A stretch of 64,000 nucleotides of DNA. It comes from an uncultured delta proteobacterium (lineage in GTDB: Bacteria; Myxococcota_A; Polyangia; Polyangiales; Polyangiaceae). Each line of letters opens with the position of its first letter. Positions within the stretch are counted from its first letter, which is position 1. A program made the translations under genes and the position numbers. Below the pieces are notes generated by a model, which ran no database searches, had not been told where the DNA came from, and saw only the letters and a list, made by a program, of their open reading frames with translations. The DNA lies in contig CAWKKR010000008.1 of assembly GCA_963850305.1 (NCBI GenBank), positions 672,001-736,000 on the forward strand, in the 5' to 3' direction. This document shows positions 14,884 to 62,536 of the stretch, in pieces.

Positions 14884-15018
14884 AAAGGGGGGCCTTGCCT
14901 CCCGCGGCTCGCTTCGCGACCGCTCCCCCCGCCGCCTTCGGCGGGCTCGCTCCGCTCGCGTAGTTCCGCACCTCTTTGATCCCTCGGTGACGACGTGCAT
15001 CGTCGATGCGGGACTACT
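14884..15018 (-). repeat. Copy of a dispersed GTAG-palindromic mini-element
   Basis: Minus strand AGTAGTCCCGCATCGACG...GGTGCGGAACTAC-GCGAGC...GGGGGG...CCCCCCTTT, closely matching 51189-51323 and related to 46267-46400. Confidence 0.9.
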
Positions 15019-46072: not shown

Positions 46073-46204
46073 GCACATTCCGTACCGCGACAGACTGCTC
46101 GTGCATTCAGGTACTTAGCACATGATCCCTCAGTAGATGCCCATCGGCGAGAGCGCCTTCCCCGAAGCATGAAGCTCGGGTCGTCGCGTGGACGGTGGAG
46201 TCGA

Positions 46205-46495
46205 GTGTATCCTGCCGCGGCGGCGGGAACGAGGTCGGCCGTGACTTGGTGCCAAGAACCCGTTCAGTAGTTCCGCATCGACGAGCAGCGTCGTCCCCGA
46301 GGAATGAAAGCGGTGCGGAACTACCGAGCGCAGCGAGTACCGGGGGGAGGGGTTGCGTAGCAAGCCCCGGGGGGCGGGCAACGCCCCCCTTTCCTAGTAG
46401 ATGGACCCGGAGCCCTGCGAGCACCCCGAATTGTGACCGCGGGTCGAAAGATCCGGGAGCACGCCTAGTAGACTTCGATGACGAGGGCTCCTCTC
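46205..46495 (+). ncRNA. Putative IS110 bridge RNA, interrupted by a 130-bp insert
   Basis: 5' hairpin 46210-46228 and two parallel internal-loop modules (GTGAC...GAACCCGTTCAGTAGA and GTGAC...GAGCACGCCTAGTAGA) whose variable parts match the target and donor junctions. Confidence 0.65.
46266..46400 (+). mobile_element. Non-autonomous mini-element inserted in the IS110 left end
   Basis: AGTAG at 46266-46270 and 46396-46400; right end TTCCTAGTAG identical to the IS right end; GTAGTTCCGCATCG/CGGTGCGGAACTAC hairpin. Confidence 0.75.
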
Positions 46496-46520
46496 GACGC
46501 GCCGAAAGGAGGAGATGGTC

Positions 46521-47747
46521 ATGGAAGTCATGTATCCCCGTTGCGCGGGCCTCGACGTCCACAAGGATAGCGTCGTTGCCTGCGTGCGCTGCGTCAGCGA
46601 ACCAACGCGGCGCGAGGTCCGAACGTTCGGCACGACCACACGTAGCCTCTTCGAGCTGGCGGAATGGCTCGAGGAGCACGGCGTGACCCACGTGGCGATG
46701 GAGGCCACCGGCGTGTACTGGAAGCCGGTCTGGCACATGCTCGAAGGGAGCTTCGAACTCGTGCTCGCGAACGCCCAGCACATTCGCAACGTGCCAGGGC
46801 GCAAGACCGACGTGAACGACGCGACGTGGATCGCCGATCTGCTCGCGCACGGGCTGATCCGCAGCAGTTTCGTGCCTCCTGCGCGAATCCAGGAGCTGCG
46901 CGATCTCACTCGAACGCGCGCGCAGCTCGTGCGAGAAATCGCCCAGCACACGCTGCGCATACAGAAAACGCTCGAGGACTCGAACATCAAGGTCGCGAGC
47001 GTCCTGTCCAGCGTGCTCGGGACCAGCGGCCGGGCGATGCTCGCCGCTCTCATCGCCGGAGAAGATGACCCCGAGCGCCTTGCCGATCTCGCGGTCGGTA
47101 CCGCGCGCAAGAAGAGGGCCGACTTGATCGAAGCGCTGCGCGGGCGGGTTACCCCTCATCACCGAGCCATGCTGAAGCTGCATCTCGGCGTCATCGGCTC
47201 GCTCGAAGGGGCCCTGGCCGAGATCGATGCAGCTGCGGGAAAAGCGCTGGAGCCGATCCGGGCGCACGCCGAGATCCTGACGACGATGCCGGGAGTGAGT
47301 GACATCGTCGCGAACGTGATCGTGGCGGAGATCGGCGTCGACATGTCGCGCTTCCCGTCTGCGGGACACCTCGTGTCCTGGGCCGGCCTCTGCCCCCGCA
47401 ACGACGAGAGCGCCGGCAAGCGTCGCTCGACGCGCGTCCGCAAGAGCGCCAACTGGCTCAAGACGACGCTCGTCACATCCGCCTGGGCCGCGGTGCGCAC
47501 GAAGGAAAGCTACCTTCGAGCCCAGTTTCTCCGGCTCAAGTCCCGCCGTGGAGCAAAGAAGGCGATCTTGGCCGTCGCCGCATCGATGCTCACCGCCGCC
47601 TTCTACATGCTCCGCGACGGCACTCCCTACCGCGACCTCGGACCCCATCACTTCGACCGCCGCGACCAGAGCAAGACCATCAAACGCCTCGTCCGCCGCT
47701 TGACCGACCTCGGCTGCGAAGTCGAGATCAAACCTCATGCGGCGTAG
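46521..47747 (+). CDS. IS110-family DEDD recombinase/transposase
   Basis: GLDVHK, MEATG, KTDVNDA (D-E-D-D) and NDESAG serine motif; AGGAGG RBS 8 nt before ATG at 46521. Confidence 0.96.
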   Translation: MEVMYPRCAGLDVHKDSVVACVRCVSEPTRREVRTFGTTTRSLFELAEWLEEHGVTHVAMEATGVYWKPVWHMLEGSFELVLANAQHIRNVPGRKTDVNDATWIADLLAHGLIRSSFVPPARIQELRDLTRTRAQLVREIAQHTLRIQKTLEDSNIKVASVLSSVLGTSGRAMLAALIAGEDDPERLADLAVGTARKKRADLIEALRGRVTPHHRAMLKLHLGVIGSLEGALAEIDAAAGKALEPIRAHAEILTTMPGVSDIVANVIVAEIGVDMSRFPSAGHLVSWAGLCPRNDESAGKRRSTRVRKSANWLKTTLVTSAWAAVRTKESYLRAQFLRLKSRRGAKKAILAVAASMLTAAFYMLRDGTPYRDLGPHHFDRRDQSKTIKRLVRRLTDLGCEVEIKPHAA

Positions 47748-47753
47748 AGCTTC

Positions 47754-49067
47754 CTAGTAGCCCCGTCCGCCTTCGGCTCGCGCTCGAGCCCGCCGCTCGA
47801 GGTCGGCCAGGGCTTGCTCGAGGACTTCTCTGGTAAAAGGGAGTCGCGCCAGCGCCGCGTCCTCGTCTTTGACACTCTGCTCCAGCGAGCGTTTCGACTC
47901 GGCGGCCCGCTGAACCCACGCAGAGTGCTCGTCGGCACGATTCGCCATGGCCAGGGTGTGATCCATCATCGCGAGGCCCTTCGTGAGCAGAACCGAATAC
48001 CGGAGCCGCATGGCGCCCTCGAAAAGCTGCGTTTTTGCTGGAGTCGATGCCCCGGTCGGCGGCGGAATGCGCATGAGCTCCGCGTGGAGCTTCTGATAGA
48101 GCTCTCCGACACGGAACCCGGCCATCGCCGACCAGTGGGCGTCGTACGCCCGCATCGTATCGGAGTAGGCGCTCTGCGCGTCGAGCAAAAGCTGGCACCG
48201 GCGCTCGAGGGCGGCGGGGAAATCCCGAGGTAACGGCTGGAAGACGACACGCTCGCCGCGAATGCGCCGTAGTTCCCCGAGCGCGAAGTAGAGCGAGGCC
48301 AGGTCGCGCGGGAGCGCTCCGGCAGCGTCGAGGCGCTCGGCATCCACGACGTCCCGCCCTTTGCCGATGAAGTACTCGGCCGCATCGGGCTGACCGGAGA
48401 AAATCAGCGAAAGTGCCTTTCCCGCGTAAACGGCGACACGGTCGAGGCTCGTGAGTTCGGAAACGCGGGCCATCAGAGCGTCCGCCGTTCGACCTGCCTC
48501 CGGCCAGCGCTCGAGGTACGAAAGAAGTCGGACGCTCCGGACCAACGCTTCGCGCGCGAGCGGATCGCCGGGATATCGTCGGGCCGTCTCTTCGTACCGC
48601 GCTGTCGCACCGTCGAGATCGCCGAGCTGATCGTGCGCAGCAGCGGCGTCGAACCACGCTTCCTCCGCACGAGAGCCATCGGGGTCGAGCGCCGTGACGC
48701 GGTCGAATCCACGCGCCGCGTCAGCGAACCGGCCTGCACCGAGGTCCACCCGTGCGCGAGCGAGGATCTCGTCGACGCTCGTGGCGTCGGTCGGGGTCAC
48801 GACCGTGCGGGGAACGACAATCGGCGTGGCCACTCGTGGGGATGCAGGTGGACTTTCGGCGCGGGGCGTCATGGCGGACGCCGCACAACCACTCACCGCG
48901 TCGCAAAGCGCCGCGAGGAGCGCCACCCTCACGAATGTTGCGACCCGTCGCGCCCGCCCGGACGAATGAAACCCACGTGAAACTGAGCGCGCCGGGACCG
49001 ACTCGCTGGTTCCCGGGCACCGCTCGGTGGTGGGCGCGCGGCGCGTCGAAAACGATTGACCAGCCAT
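47754..49067 (-). CDS. TPR-containing probable lipoprotein (start uncertain)
   Basis: AVSGC lipobox-like motif, TPR-like helices (EEAWFDAA, REALVRS). Confidence 0.75.
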   Translation of the reverse strand: MAGQSFSTRRAPTTERCPGTSESVPARSVSRGFHSSGRARRVATFVRVALLAALCDAVSGCAASAMTPRAESPPASPRVATPIVVPRTVVTPTDATSVDEILARARVDLGAGRFADAARGFDRVTALDPDGSRAEEAWFDAAAAHDQLGDLDGATARYEETARRYPGDPLAREALVRSVRLLSYLERWPEAGRTADALMARVSELTSLDRVAVYAGKALSLIFSGQPDAAEYFIGKGRDVVDAERLDAAGALPRDLASLYFALGELRRIRGERVVFQPLPRDFPAALERRCQLLLDAQSAYSDTMRAYDAHWSAMAGFRVGELYQKLHAELMRIPPPTGASTPAKTQLFEGAMRLRYSVLLTKGLAMMDHTLAMANRADEHSAWVQRAAESKRSLEQSVKDEDAALARLPFTREVLEQALADLERRARARAEGGRGY

Positions 49068-50639: not shown

Positions 50640-52961
50640 ATGAACGGCCCCCCGACCTCGTCGATTCGCGTGCCGCGCGCGCTCGTTTACGCCCCCCTGG
50701 CGGTCGCGACGTTGTGGCTCGCCGCGACGACGGTGCGACGAGTCCTCGCTCTTTCGGGCGGAGCTGCGGTGCCCCTCGACGACGCTTACATCCATTTCCA
50801 GTATGCGCGCTCGATCGCGGAGCTCCATGCGTTCGCGTACACGCGCGGCGCGGTGCCCACTCCCGGCGCAACCAGCCTGCTCTGGCCGCTGACCCTCGCC
50901 CCATTTTACGCGCTCGGCTTTCGCGGCGCGCGGATCATCTGGGTCGCCTGGGCCCTCGGCTTCACGTCCCTCGGCCTCCTCGCGCTGGAAACCCGGCGGC
51001 TTGCATCGGGACTCATGCGCCCGCCCGTCGCGATCGCCACGGGTGCGATGGTCATCGCGTTCGGTGGGTTCACATGGTTCGCGGCGAGCGGCATGGAGGT
51101 CGTCCCGTTTGCGTGGCTCTTCACACGAACCGTGCGGCGCGCAGCCGAGTGGATGGAAAGCGCAGGCAACACGGTCCGCGCACCGTCCGTAGGTCCGCAT
51201 CGACGAGCAGTGTCCCCCCTGAGAGATCGAAGAGGTGCGGAACTACGCGAGCCTAGCGAGCACGCCGAAGGCGGCGGGGGGAGCGGGCGCGAAGCGAGCC
51301 GCGGGGGGCAAGGCCCCCCTTTACCTAACGAGCCTAGCGAGCACGCCGAAGGCGGCGGGGGGAGCGGGCGCGAAGCGAGCCGCGGGGGGCAAGGCCCCCC
51401 TTTACCTAACGAGCCTAGCGAGCACGCCGAAGGCGGCGGGGGGAGCGGGCGCGAAGCGAGCCGCGGGGGGCAAGGCCCCCCTTTACAAGAGCTGTGGTTG
51501 CTGGCGGTCCTGTGTCCCCTGATGCGGCCCGAGGGTGCCGTGGCGTCGCTGCTCGTCGCACTCGCGCTCTTCATCGAGCCACGAGGCGGTTCCCGACTTC
51601 GGGGAATGGCAGCCCTGCTCGCACCAGCCACGCCGTCCGTCATCTGCTGGCTGGCGACGGGCCATGCCGTGACCTCGACGGCAACGGCGAAGTGGCTCCT
51701 CCTCAATCCGTACTATCGAGGCGATCGCCTATTTTCCGCGATCGAGAGCAACGTCGAGATCTTCTTCGGCACGCTTCTGGACGGAAAGCTGTGGACCAGC
51801 GTGTTTCTTCCCGAAGGCGGTCGGCCGATCGCCGTGCTGGCTCTCTTCGCCATCCCACTTGCCGGCGCGACCCGCCACCGATTGCCGCGAGCCATCGGCG
51901 TGCTCGTATTCGCTCTCGCTGCACTGGCTCCGACGACCTACGAAACATTCCTCGTCAACCGGGTGCGCTACATCTGGCCGTTCGCGCCCGCCTGGTTCAT
52001 CGGGCTCGGGGCGCTCGCCGAGGTCAGTGGCGCCTGGGCCGAGCGCACGCTCGCGCGGATAGGCGCGCCCCGGGTCGAGCTACCGATCCTCACCGCGGGC
52101 GTCTTCGTGGGCTTGCTCGGGTCGCGGCTCTCCCCGAGCATCGAGGATCTCGCGACGAGCGCTCAGGCGGTCACCCTGCAGCAGGTCTCGCTCGCGAAGT
52201 GGGCCGCCGCGTCCCTTCCGCCGACCGCGCGCATCGGCGTGAACGACACGGGCGCCATGGCGTACTTCTCGAACCGGACGACGTTCGACGTCGTGGGCCT
52301 GACGACCGCCGGGGAAGCTCGATACTGGACGGCGGGGCCCGGTTCCCGGTTCGAGCACTACGAACACCTGTCGCGCGCCGCGCTACCCACGCATTTCATC
52401 GTTTACCCCGAGTGGTTCGCGGTCGAACCGCTTCTCGGCGAACAGCTGACGGAACGCGTCGTGCGTCACACGATCCTCGGAGGGACCACGATGATCGCGT
52501 ACGAGGCGCGGTACGATCTGCTCGGCTCGGGGGAGCGTCCGACGGAGTTCGACGTCGGACGGAGGCAGCTGGTAGATGCGCTCGACGTCGCGGACCTCGA
52601 CGACGAAGCTCGTCACGCATACGCGCTCTTCGACGCGAGCGCGCAGACCGACGTCGTGGTGAGCGGCGCGGAGTCGGCCGACGGCGCCCGCACCAACCGT
52701 CGCGTGGACGCGTTCACGATCGCGTTCGCTCCCGGCGGCGCGCTGGTCGCGCGACTCGGGGCGGAAAACCCGCTGCGGCTCGAGGTGCGTATCGACGGGC
52801 AGGCAGCCGGGGCGATCGACCTCGACGGCAGTTTCTGGCAGGAGACCGTGGTCTCGGTACCGACCAGCGTCGCGAGCGGCGTGCACCACGTCGACGTTCG
52901 AACGACGGGCAACGGCGCGTTCACATCGCTGCACTACTGGTCTTACGCTGCCGCGCCGTAG
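50640..52961 (+). CDS. Polytopic membrane protein (GT-C glycosyltransferase-like) with an in-frame repeat insertion
   Basis: DDAYIHFQYA, GATSLLW, SGME, RPEG, DTGA...DVVGL motifs. Confidence 0.75.
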   Translation: MNGPPTSSIRVPRALVYAPLAVATLWLAATTVRRVLALSGGAAVPLDDAYIHFQYARSIAELHAFAYTRGAVPTPGATSLLWPLTLAPFYALGFRGARIIWVAWALGFTSLGLLALETRRLASGLMRPPVAIATGAMVIAFGGFTWFAASGMEVVPFAWLFTRTVRRAAEWMESAGNTVRAPSVGPHRRAVSPLRDRRGAELREPSEHAEGGGGSGREASRGGQGPPLPNEPSEHAEGGGGSGREASRGGQGPPLPNEPSEHAEGGGGSGREASRGGQGPPLQELWLLAVLCPLMRPEGAVASLLVALALFIEPRGGSRLRGMAALLAPATPSVICWLATGHAVTSTATAKWLLLNPYYRGDRLFSAIESNVEIFFGTLLDGKLWTSVFLPEGGRPIAVLALFAIPLAGATRHRLPRAIGVLVFALAALAPTTYETFLVNRVRYIWPFAPAWFIGLGALAEVSGAWAERTLARIGAPRVELPILTAGVFVGLLGSRLSPSIEDLATSAQAVTLQQVSLAKWAAASLPPTARIGVNDTGAMAYFSNRTTFDVVGLTTAGEARYWTAGPGSRFEHYEHLSRAALPTHFIVYPEWFAVEPLLGEQLTERVVRHTILGGTTMIAYEARYDLLGSGERPTEFDVGRRQLVDALDVADLDDEARHAYALFDASAQTDVVVSGAESADGARTNRRVDAFTIAFAPGGALVARLGAENPLRLEVRIDGQAAGAIDLDGSFWQETVVSVPTSVASGVHHVDVRTTGNGAFTSLHYWSYAAAP
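51189..51488 (+). repeat. Mini-element copy with its 81-bp second module in three tandem copies
   Basis: GTAG...CTAC hairpin followed by units starting at 51249, 51330 and 51411. Confidence 0.92.
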
Positions 52962-62350: not shown

Positions 62351-62536
62351 ATACGGGAGAATGAACCGCGGCAAAGGTATCGTCAACCCCCGGACTGCCG
62401 GCCACCAGACGAGGCTGCGTAGTGATCGACCTTTCGGACGTGAAGCGACGGATTGACGGACACGGGAATCCCCCGATCCCGTGGACAGCAGGCGCTTCGT
62501 TTCATCCTTCGGGACGACGCGCGCGTCGATGCGGGA

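What the first reader, a model, noticed from the sequence alone, without database searches (positions are those of the whole stretch)
46266..46400. Mini-element carrying IS110 ends: candidate non-autonomous passenger of a bridge recombinase, inserted into the bridge RNA itself
Seen: a 130-bp element sits in the IS110 left end, flanked by the same AGTAG duplication as the IS. Its right end TTCCTAGTAG is identical to the IS right end (47751-47760). Its left end TAGTTCCGCATCGACGAG matches the IS left end TAGATGCCCATCGGCGAG at 14 of 18 positions. Both insertions follow TCAGTAG. Relatives lie at 14884-15018 and 51189-51488, but these lack the full CCTAGTAG end. Known: IS110 recombinases join a donor junction to a target using a bridge RNA with donor and target guides. 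Inference: the repeat family is mobilised in trans by an IS110 recombinase, and it landed here because the target guide in the bridge-RNA gene is itself a target-like sequence. The insertion splits the target loop and puts a donor-like CCTAGTAG next to the closing stem, which could disable or retarget the element. Alternative: a RAYT-associated REPIN (GTAG...CTAC doublet); no RAYT gene is in this window.
Basis: partly seen in the sequence, partly recalled or inferred. Interest (0 to 1): 0.88.

Follow-up and report, generated by a model that had tools for sequence, protein, structure and literature searches.

The report
Passenger mini-element inside IS110 bridge RNA
A short gene-less repeat that borrows the ends of an RNA-guided jumping gene has landed in the stretch of that gene's own guide RNA that spells its target, probably disabling the targeting half, while the intact jumping gene in turn sits mostly at the start of such repeats; hitchhikers of this kind are known, this mutual targeting is an unusual twist.

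Summary
Confirmed. The 130 bp (46271-46400) is an insertion: 6 of 8 genomic copies of this IS110 lack it. It belongs to a family of 70 mini-elements in this genome (also in congeners) whose ~45-bp left end and CCTAGTAG right end match this IS110 clade. Covariation across homologues shows the insertion point is the 3' edge of the left target guide of the bridge RNA; the core is the last AG, so AGTAG is not a target-site duplication but the shared tail of target and donor guides. No RAYT gene was found. New twist: a mini's left junction is itself the IS's predicted full target (TCAGTAG-TY; 10 of 12 such sites are mini starts), and 7 of 8 IS copies, plus a 95%-identical relative, abut a mini. The insertion most likely disables, not retargets, the target loop. 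Circles and trans-mobilisation were not shown. Closest known: ISPpu9/MITEPpu9; this scan found IS110-derived mini-elements before in two other genomes. New variant of a known kind.

The parts
46130..46136 (+). Left half of the IS target (TCAGT) plus core AG (46135-46136)
   Evidence: TCAGTAG precedes 7 of 8 IS copies; covaries with the guide in homologues
46137..46180 (+). IS left-end box (A-box: AT start, CATCG, hairpin, CCCCGA..ATGAAG), homologous to the mini left end
46219..46501 (+). Predicted bridge RNA (outer stem 46219-46228/46492-46501, target loop, donor loop), split by the insertion; this copy also has a private T>G at 46223 that breaks one outer-stem pair
   Evidence: consensus fold of 34 homologues with compensatory changes in the outer and donor-loop stems; SNP table
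46243..46246 (+). Right target guide GACT (reads core + T-C/T)
   Evidence: position covaries with right flank: 1.20 vs 0.52 of 2 bases in shuffles, n=44
46263..46270 (+). Left target guide TTCAGTAG; its DNA is the site at which the mini inserted
46271..46400 (+). 130-bp mini-element (one core AG counted at its right end)
   Evidence: absent from 6 of 8 IS copies; family of 70
46271..46324 (+). Mini left-end box; 46314-46324 is complementary to 46267-46277, so it pairs with the last four guide bases
   Evidence: folds
46325..46389 (+). Single internal GC-rich palindromic unit (0-11 units in other copies)
46391..46400 (+). Mini right-end box TTCCTAGTAG, identical to the IS right end and matching the left donor guide
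46401..46402 (+). Dinucleotide AT behind the guide, equal to the first two bases of the IS left end (handshake-like)
   Evidence: equal in 80 of 84 homologue loci, 12 of 13 where it is not TT
46429..46432 (+). Putative right donor guide AATT (position by analogy; weakly constrained)
   Evidence: alignment; not tested by shuffles
46464..46471 (+). Left donor guide CCTAGTAG, intact
   Evidence: covaries with right ends of homologues
46515..47747 (+). IS110 DEDD recombinase, 410 aa, open frame
   Evidence: PF01548 and PF02371; IS621 transposase is the only PDB match
47748..47760 (+). IS right end; the only one of 8 copies not followed by a mini
51193..51489 (+). Related mini (3 units, decayed right end), 297 bp in frame inside ORF 50640-52961
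   Evidence: absent from 5 of 5 congener orthologues
14884..15018 (-). Related mini (1 unit, right end lost)
62498..62536 (-).
   Evidence: HMM positions 1-39, E 3e-7

Best explanation
The element is a non-autonomous passenger of an IS110-clade bridge recombinase (a MITEPpu9-type module): left-end box + palindromic filler + right-end box. Shown: it is an insertion at the 3' edge of the left target guide; its ends are those of this IS110 clade; the family sits behind a TCAGTAG-like host motif. Inferred: recombinase plus intact bridge RNA from one of the six whole copies (or a close predecessor) excised a mini as a circle (junction CCTAGT-AG-TT), and inserted it at the guide's own DNA, which is an 8/8 match to the guide and so a built-in target. 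Inferred consequence: the target loop is dead (guide moved 130 nt from its closing stem and half of it paired into the mini's hairpin) while the donor loop stays whole, so this IS copy depends on other copies for targeting. Because the mini starts with TT and this IS's right guide reads AG-TY, each mini inserted at TCAGTAG rebuilds a full target at its left junction; this explains IS-mini fusions and mini tandems (I put independent targeting plus later gene conversion at about 55%, co-transposition of IS+mini at about 35%). Most copies are older than this IS and were probably spread by earlier clade members with the same two long guides.
For: 6 of 8 IS copies lack it. Only IS110 family in G000: 8 matches, all this element. 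Guide covariation: left target guide 4.95/5 non-core matches vs 1.45 shuffled (40 distinct guides), left donor guide 4.74 vs 2.29 (23), right target guide 1.20 vs 0.52 of 2 (44; 0 of 10,000 shuffles). Left flanks of 52 independent minis follow the guide at positions -7..-1 (T 30, C 28, A 43, G 49, T 45, A 52, G 49 of 52) but not at -8, the same signature as guide-target pairs in homologues (3 of 40 at -8); same bias in 30 congener copies. The motif is host DNA in two testable cases: end of a gene whose G000 orthologue has the same codons without a mini (L185), and the in-frame copy at 51193. Of 37 CCTAGTAG octamers in G000, 15 are mini right ends, 8 IS ends, 8 guides, 6 other. Minis start TT in 56 of 70, as do 68 of 84 homologous IS left ends; 23 of 105 parsed homologue loci carry the same two long guides. 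TCAGTAG-TY: 10 of 12 genomic sites are mini starts; 7 of 8 IS copies and L086 (95% aa) abut a mini. In G169, guide-coding DNA of a related bridge RNA gene forms element ends in 4 loci. Precedent with experiments: PMC12288879.
Against: No mini or IS circle junction seen; contigs of 4 runs gave only the read-through and IS-to-mini joints. Right ends are often decayed: 10 of 70 match 8/8, 25 of 70 at least 7/8. Right flanks of intact minis begin with T in 1 of 19, so they were not placed under this IS's present right guide; the bridge RNA site itself (AG-AT) mismatches that guide at one base. No identical source copy: nearest differs at about 2-3 positions. Five congeners with the family hold no close IS110 in their draft assemblies. 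The internal unit also occurs in 37 of 92 clusters without the left-end box, some with other heads. The guide-flank values for the two long guides are biased upward, as junctions were picked by best match (2 left junctions under 5/7 and right ends under 6/7 dropped). IS-adjacent minis share private variants (spacer 23 of 28 occurrences), which independent targeting alone does not explain.
Confidence: 0.75

Rival explanations
1. The family is an old, now passive repeat left by extinct IS110 relatives; the present IS only uses it as a landing pad (as IS621 uses REPs), and the copy in the bridge RNA gene was placed by a different clade member or by a recombination accident, not by this IS.
For: Family is genus-wide and diverged (5 of 6 congeners) while IS copies are 99.7-100% identical; mini starts TT, this IS starts AT; right flanks do not fit the present right guide; the two interrupted copies fall in different IS haplotype groups, so conversion between copies occurs.
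Against: The insertion is precise at the core, has perfect ends, belongs to a young subfamily (6 other copies within 3-10 differences), and postdates the common ancestor of near-identical IS copies; no other IS110 was found in G000.
Confidence: 0.14
2. RAYT-associated REPIN (GTAG...CTAC doublet) moved by a HUH tyrosine transposase.
For: An 11-bp inverted repeat beginning GTAG closes a strong hairpin (z -3.4); Y1_Tnp-like genes exist in 3 of 5 congeners, 13 matches in G006.
Against: No PF01797, NF047646 or tblastn match to two congener RAYT-like proteins in G000 (94.8% complete); no mini hit in the 10 RAYT-like loci fetched of 16, whereas RAYTs are described as always flanked by their REPs (PMC2817692); the leading GTAG varies and is host-derived where testable; a REPIN would not carry an IS110 left-end box and right end.
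Confidence: 0.05
3. Classical MITE of a DDE transposase with a 5-bp target duplication AGTAG.
For: AGTAG flanks both sides here; integrase-core and DDE_5 elements are present in several copies in G000.
Against: No terminal inverted repeats between the two ends; left and right 5-mers do not co-vary; ends match the IS110 instead.
Confidence: 0.03
4. The 130 bp is a native part of the IS or an assembly artefact.
For: Repeat-rich region of a metagenome-derived assembly.
Against: 6 of 8 copies and all other loci lack it (pattern found in 5 of 202 loci, all from the two G000 copies); it occurs twice, on different contigs with different flanks. Run contigs did not bridge the filled junction, so read support for the filled form is missing.
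Confidence: 0.03

Closest known systems
MITEPpu9 (ssr9 module) of ISPpu9, IS110 group, Pseudomonas putida KT2440 (PMC12288879; PMC8450116)
   Same: Gene-less module flanked by copies of the IS's ~43-bp left box and short right box; AG core; fused behind most IS copies through a shared AG (5 of 7 there, 7 of 8 here); orphan and tandem copies.
   Different: 8 copies there versus 70 here and a genus-wide family; variable internal tandem units; in-frame gene insertion; insertion into the bridge RNA gene; left junction equals the IS's predicted target. ISPpu9 targets REPs; circles were shown there, not here. Sequence relationship to ISPpu9 not tested (box sequences are in supplements not seen).
IS621 bridge recombination system (PMC11208160; PMC13626964)
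   Same: DEDD + Tnp recombinase, bridge RNA in the left end, target loop then donor loop, core dinucleotide, handshake-like dinucleotide.
   Different: [quoted passage not shown] Core AG, not CT. Whether this layout is among the six structures of Extended Data Fig. 10c could not be seen.
Expanded IS110 loci with non-coding repeat units and partial circles (bioRxiv 10.64898/2026.08.14.744561)
   Same: Repeat units accumulate beside the recombinase; one-sided boundary matches; partial fragments reintegrate.
   Different: [quoted passage not shown]
REP/REPIN-RAYT systems (PMC2817692)
   Same: Abundant palindromic intergenic repeat, GTAG at the start, used as an IS110 landing site.
   Different: No RAYT found in the genome or beside the repeats; ends are IS110-type.

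Membership tests
MITEPpu9-type IS110 passenger | Non-coding module bounded by copies of the cognate IS110's left and right boxes | tested here: met
MITEPpu9-type IS110 passenger | Occurs fused behind the IS via a shared core, as orphans and as tandems | tested here: met
   7 of 8 IS copies; tandems at C7:290986, C8:1022309, C1:546052
MITEPpu9-type IS110 passenger | Forms circles, dependent on the recombinase | not testable with these tools
   only contigs of 4 DNA runs; no circle joint listed
MITEPpu9-type IS110 passenger | Expresses a small RNA | not testable with these tools
   no RNA holder listed
IS110 group (host element) | DEDD_Tnp_IS110 plus Transposase_20 domains | tested here: met
IS110 group (host element) | Two-loop RNA in the left end whose guides covary with target and donor | tested here: met
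IS110 group (host element) | Guide order as in IS621 (long bottom-strand guide 5' in each loop) | tested here: not met
   long guide is 3' here versus text of PMC11208160; a clade variant, not a family criterion
REPIN | Cognate RAYT gene in the genome, flanked by the repeat | tested here: not met
   genome 94.8% complete
REPIN | Two inverted REPs with a fixed GTAG head | tested here: inconclusive
   11-bp inverted repeat present but the leading GTAG varies and is host-derived in 2 of 2 informative cases
Classical MITE | Terminal inverted repeats and target-site duplication | tested here: not met

The most novel reading that the evidence does not exclude
A closed loop between an RNA-guided IS and its own parasite: an IS110-derived mini-element spread through a genus, this IS lineage then acquired a right guide that makes every such mini a landing pad, and the mini in turn inserts into the guide-coding DNA of the bridge RNA (an unavoidable self-target), converting IS copies into donor-loop-only helpers that may favour donor-to-donor joining and so build the tandem arrays. 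Guide-coding DNA as a natural recombination hot spot would be a general weak point of bridge systems (second instance in G169).
Probability: 0.3. Interest if true: 0.72.

Novelty: new variant of a known kind. Interest (0 to 1): 0.52.

Why it matters
It suggests that abundant bacterial palindromic repeats can be spread by RNA-guided IS110 recombinases rather than by RAYTs, and that a 'REP-like' landing pad can be the IS clade's own derivative. It gives a natural case of a bridge RNA gene being hit at its own guide, a self-targeting risk relevant to bridge-editing constructs, and a small ready-made test system (intact and interrupted RNA, two donors, one target) for cargo mobilisation, donor-loop-only activity and a clade with swapped guide order.

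Tried and rejected
True 5-bp duplication: rejected. Core at the first AG: considered from decayed right ends, rejected by homologue covariation. Retargeting by the inserted CCTAGTAG: rejected on position. AT/AT change as self-avoidance or as a precondition for targeting TT: not upheld, since L106 has AT/AT with another right guide and L119, L124, L132 have GACT with TT. Single-sequence fold of the intact left end was uninformative (z 0.69). Rfam: 0 matches. Promoter/terminator scan: 0. Paralogue search for empty sites within G000 gave no clean pair. Congener empty sites: 7 of 31 loci gave flank pairs, 1 informative at base level. Preference for stop codons: 17 of 42 versus 23% background, weak. 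No RNA holder listed. No circle joint in run contigs (contigs cannot show absence). Viral contigs: 0 matches to the filled junction. Strict left-box pattern in 301 genomes of the order: many copies only in G000 (41) and G006 (37), single hits in 4 others. Literature searches listed no paper on this repeat family or on insertion into a bridge RNA gene; the library lacks most subscription papers.

Full report
Observation. The host is an IS110 (410 aa; PF01548 and PF02371) upstream of a tRNA/tuf cluster. Contigs of two of four soil runs skip exactly these bases. These 8 are the only PF01548 matches in the genome.

The family. An HMM of the left end gave 83 hits; 70 are mini starts and 8 are the IS left ends, which match over about 40 positions. 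Copies have a left box, 0-11 GC-rich palindromic units of about 70 bp, and a right end resembling TTTCCTAGTAG; 10 of 70 keep the terminal octamer exactly and 25 of 70 at 7/8 or better. Several are head-to-tail tandems sharing one junction. The family was found in 5 of 6 congeners and marginally elsewhere among 60 relatives; a strict pattern found many copies only in G000 and G006 among 301 genomes. The internal unit also occurs without the left box in 37 of 92 clusters, so it may have a history of its own.

Bridge RNA. I collected 123 loci (one G000 copy, one congener, 41 genome and 80 metagenome loci), parsed 105, and called a left junction in 84 and a right end in 67. The octamer behind GAnCCCG matches the left flank (4.95 of 5 non-core bases versus 1.45 shuffled; 40 distinct guides), the octamer behind GAGCACG matches the right end (4.74 versus 2.29; 23), and both end on the core, which is therefore the last AG. 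These two values are inflated by best-match calling; the right target guide, on which nothing was selected, gives 1.20 versus 0.52 of 2 bases (44; first base paired in 32 of 44). The two bases behind the target guide equal the first two bases of the left end in 80 of 84 loci, as expected of a handshake guide (concept from PMC13626964, sections 6 and 11). A consensus fold of 34 homologues gives an outer stem and two loops, with compensatory changes in the outer and donor-loop stems; the target-loop closing stem is nearly invariant. The long guide lies 3' in each loop, opposite to the IS621 description (PMC11208160 passages and section 12; figures not seen). The mini sits exactly between the left target guide (46263-46270) and the handshake bases. 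AGTAG on both sides follows from target guide TTCAGTAG and donor guide CCTAGTAG sharing five bases.

Is the family placed by these guides? Left flanks of 52 independent minis (tandem-internal, IS-adjacent, one duplicate and two off-register rows dropped) match the guide at -7 to -1 and not at -8, as do 30 congener copies. Two cases show the motif is host DNA: a G006 mini follows a gene end whose G000 orthologue has the same last codons and no mini, and the copy at 51193-51489 is a 99-codon in-frame insertion absent from 5 of 5 orthologues, the flanking codons lining up with the G003 protein. Minis begin TT (56 of 70) like most homologous IS left ends (68 of 84), and 23 parsed loci share both long guides. 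Against present-day placement: right flanks of intact minis start with T in only 1 of 19, and congeners hold no close IS110 in draft assemblies. I infer an old family spread by earlier clade members, with a young subfamily still mobile.

The reverse relation. The guides predict the target TCAGT-AG-TY. Of 12 such sites in G000, 10 are mini starts; 7 of 8 IS copies are followed directly by a mini, as is L086, a 95%-identical element from another metagenome with a different mini subtype; runs X2 and X4 show the same joint. The seven IS-adjacent minis share private variants near the IS but all end differently, four or more without an intact right end. This fits independent insertion followed by gene conversion better than movement as a unit, but does not exclude the latter. 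Conversion is also suggested by the two interrupted copies falling in different haplotype groups, so their number does not prove that a crippled IS transposed.

Effect of the insertion. In the predicted fold the last four guide bases pair with the mini's inverted repeat, and the closing stem is 130 nt away; single-sequence folds of this region are unreliable, so this is inference. The donor loop is unchanged apart from private substitutions in the C5 copy. In IS621 efficient insertion needs both loops but the donor loop alone showed activity. In G169, related left-end fragments end exactly at the donor guide (2 loci) or the target guide (2 loci), inserted in a repeat whose empty form was also found, independent evidence that guide-coding DNA is used as a recombination site in this clade.

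Rivals. RAYT: none in G000 by two family models and tblastn; congener Y1_Tnp-like genes are not flanked by the mini in 10 loci. DDE MITE: other IS types exist but there are no terminal repeats or duplications.

Known systems. ISPpu9/MITEPpu9 has the same architecture and shown circles (PMC12288879: introduction, results parts 1-2 of 4, section 17, discussion part 1 of 2; supplements not seen; PMC8450116 passages). The 2026 preprint on expanded IS110 loci (sections 5, 8, 9) reports repeat accumulation beside IS110 and says insertion does not regenerate a target. PMC3733652 passages name no myxobacterial family. Searches listed no report of insertion into a bridge RNA gene. Two earlier scan notes describe IS110-derived minis in other genomes. 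Verdict: a real, well-defined new variant of a known kind; the mutual targeting is the part worth testing.

Noticed in passing
G169: L216-L223, L226, L227: A multicopy repeat ahead of an HNH-like ORF (label recalled, not tested) is the target of an IS110 of this clade; empty sites and fills by several fragments are present: left end to donor guide, left end to target guide, and left end plus recombinase 3' end plus right end. No whole copy was seen among these loci.
   Followed up: partly
window 50640-52961: 773-aa ORF without Pfam match carries a 99-codon in-frame mini insertion (three repeats of a Gly-rich peptide) absent from five congener orthologues.
   Followed up: yes
bridge RNA of L004, L011, L023-L165: This IS110 clade has the long guide 3' and the short guide 5' in each loop, the reverse of the IS621 description.
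   Followed up: partly
G000 C6:40887, C6:150575, C6:153067, C4:375118, C4:380281, C7:219862, C1:792291: A second repeat family uses the same internal unit with a different head and tail and no IS110 boxes; mobiliser unknown.
   Followed up: no
G006 L066, L069, L071-L075: 13 Y1_Tnp-like matches in one congener, none found in G000.
   Followed up: partly
L163 and L029/L031: Homologous IS110s followed directly by their own left end (tandem insertion).
   Followed up: no
G000 C8:864851-866350: One IS copy has a single-base insertion near the recombinase 3' end (frameshift or sequencing error).
   Followed up: no
G000 C1:738974 and C6:178335: Two different minis share a 99%-identical right flank, one ending with and one without the last TAG.
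   Followed up: no
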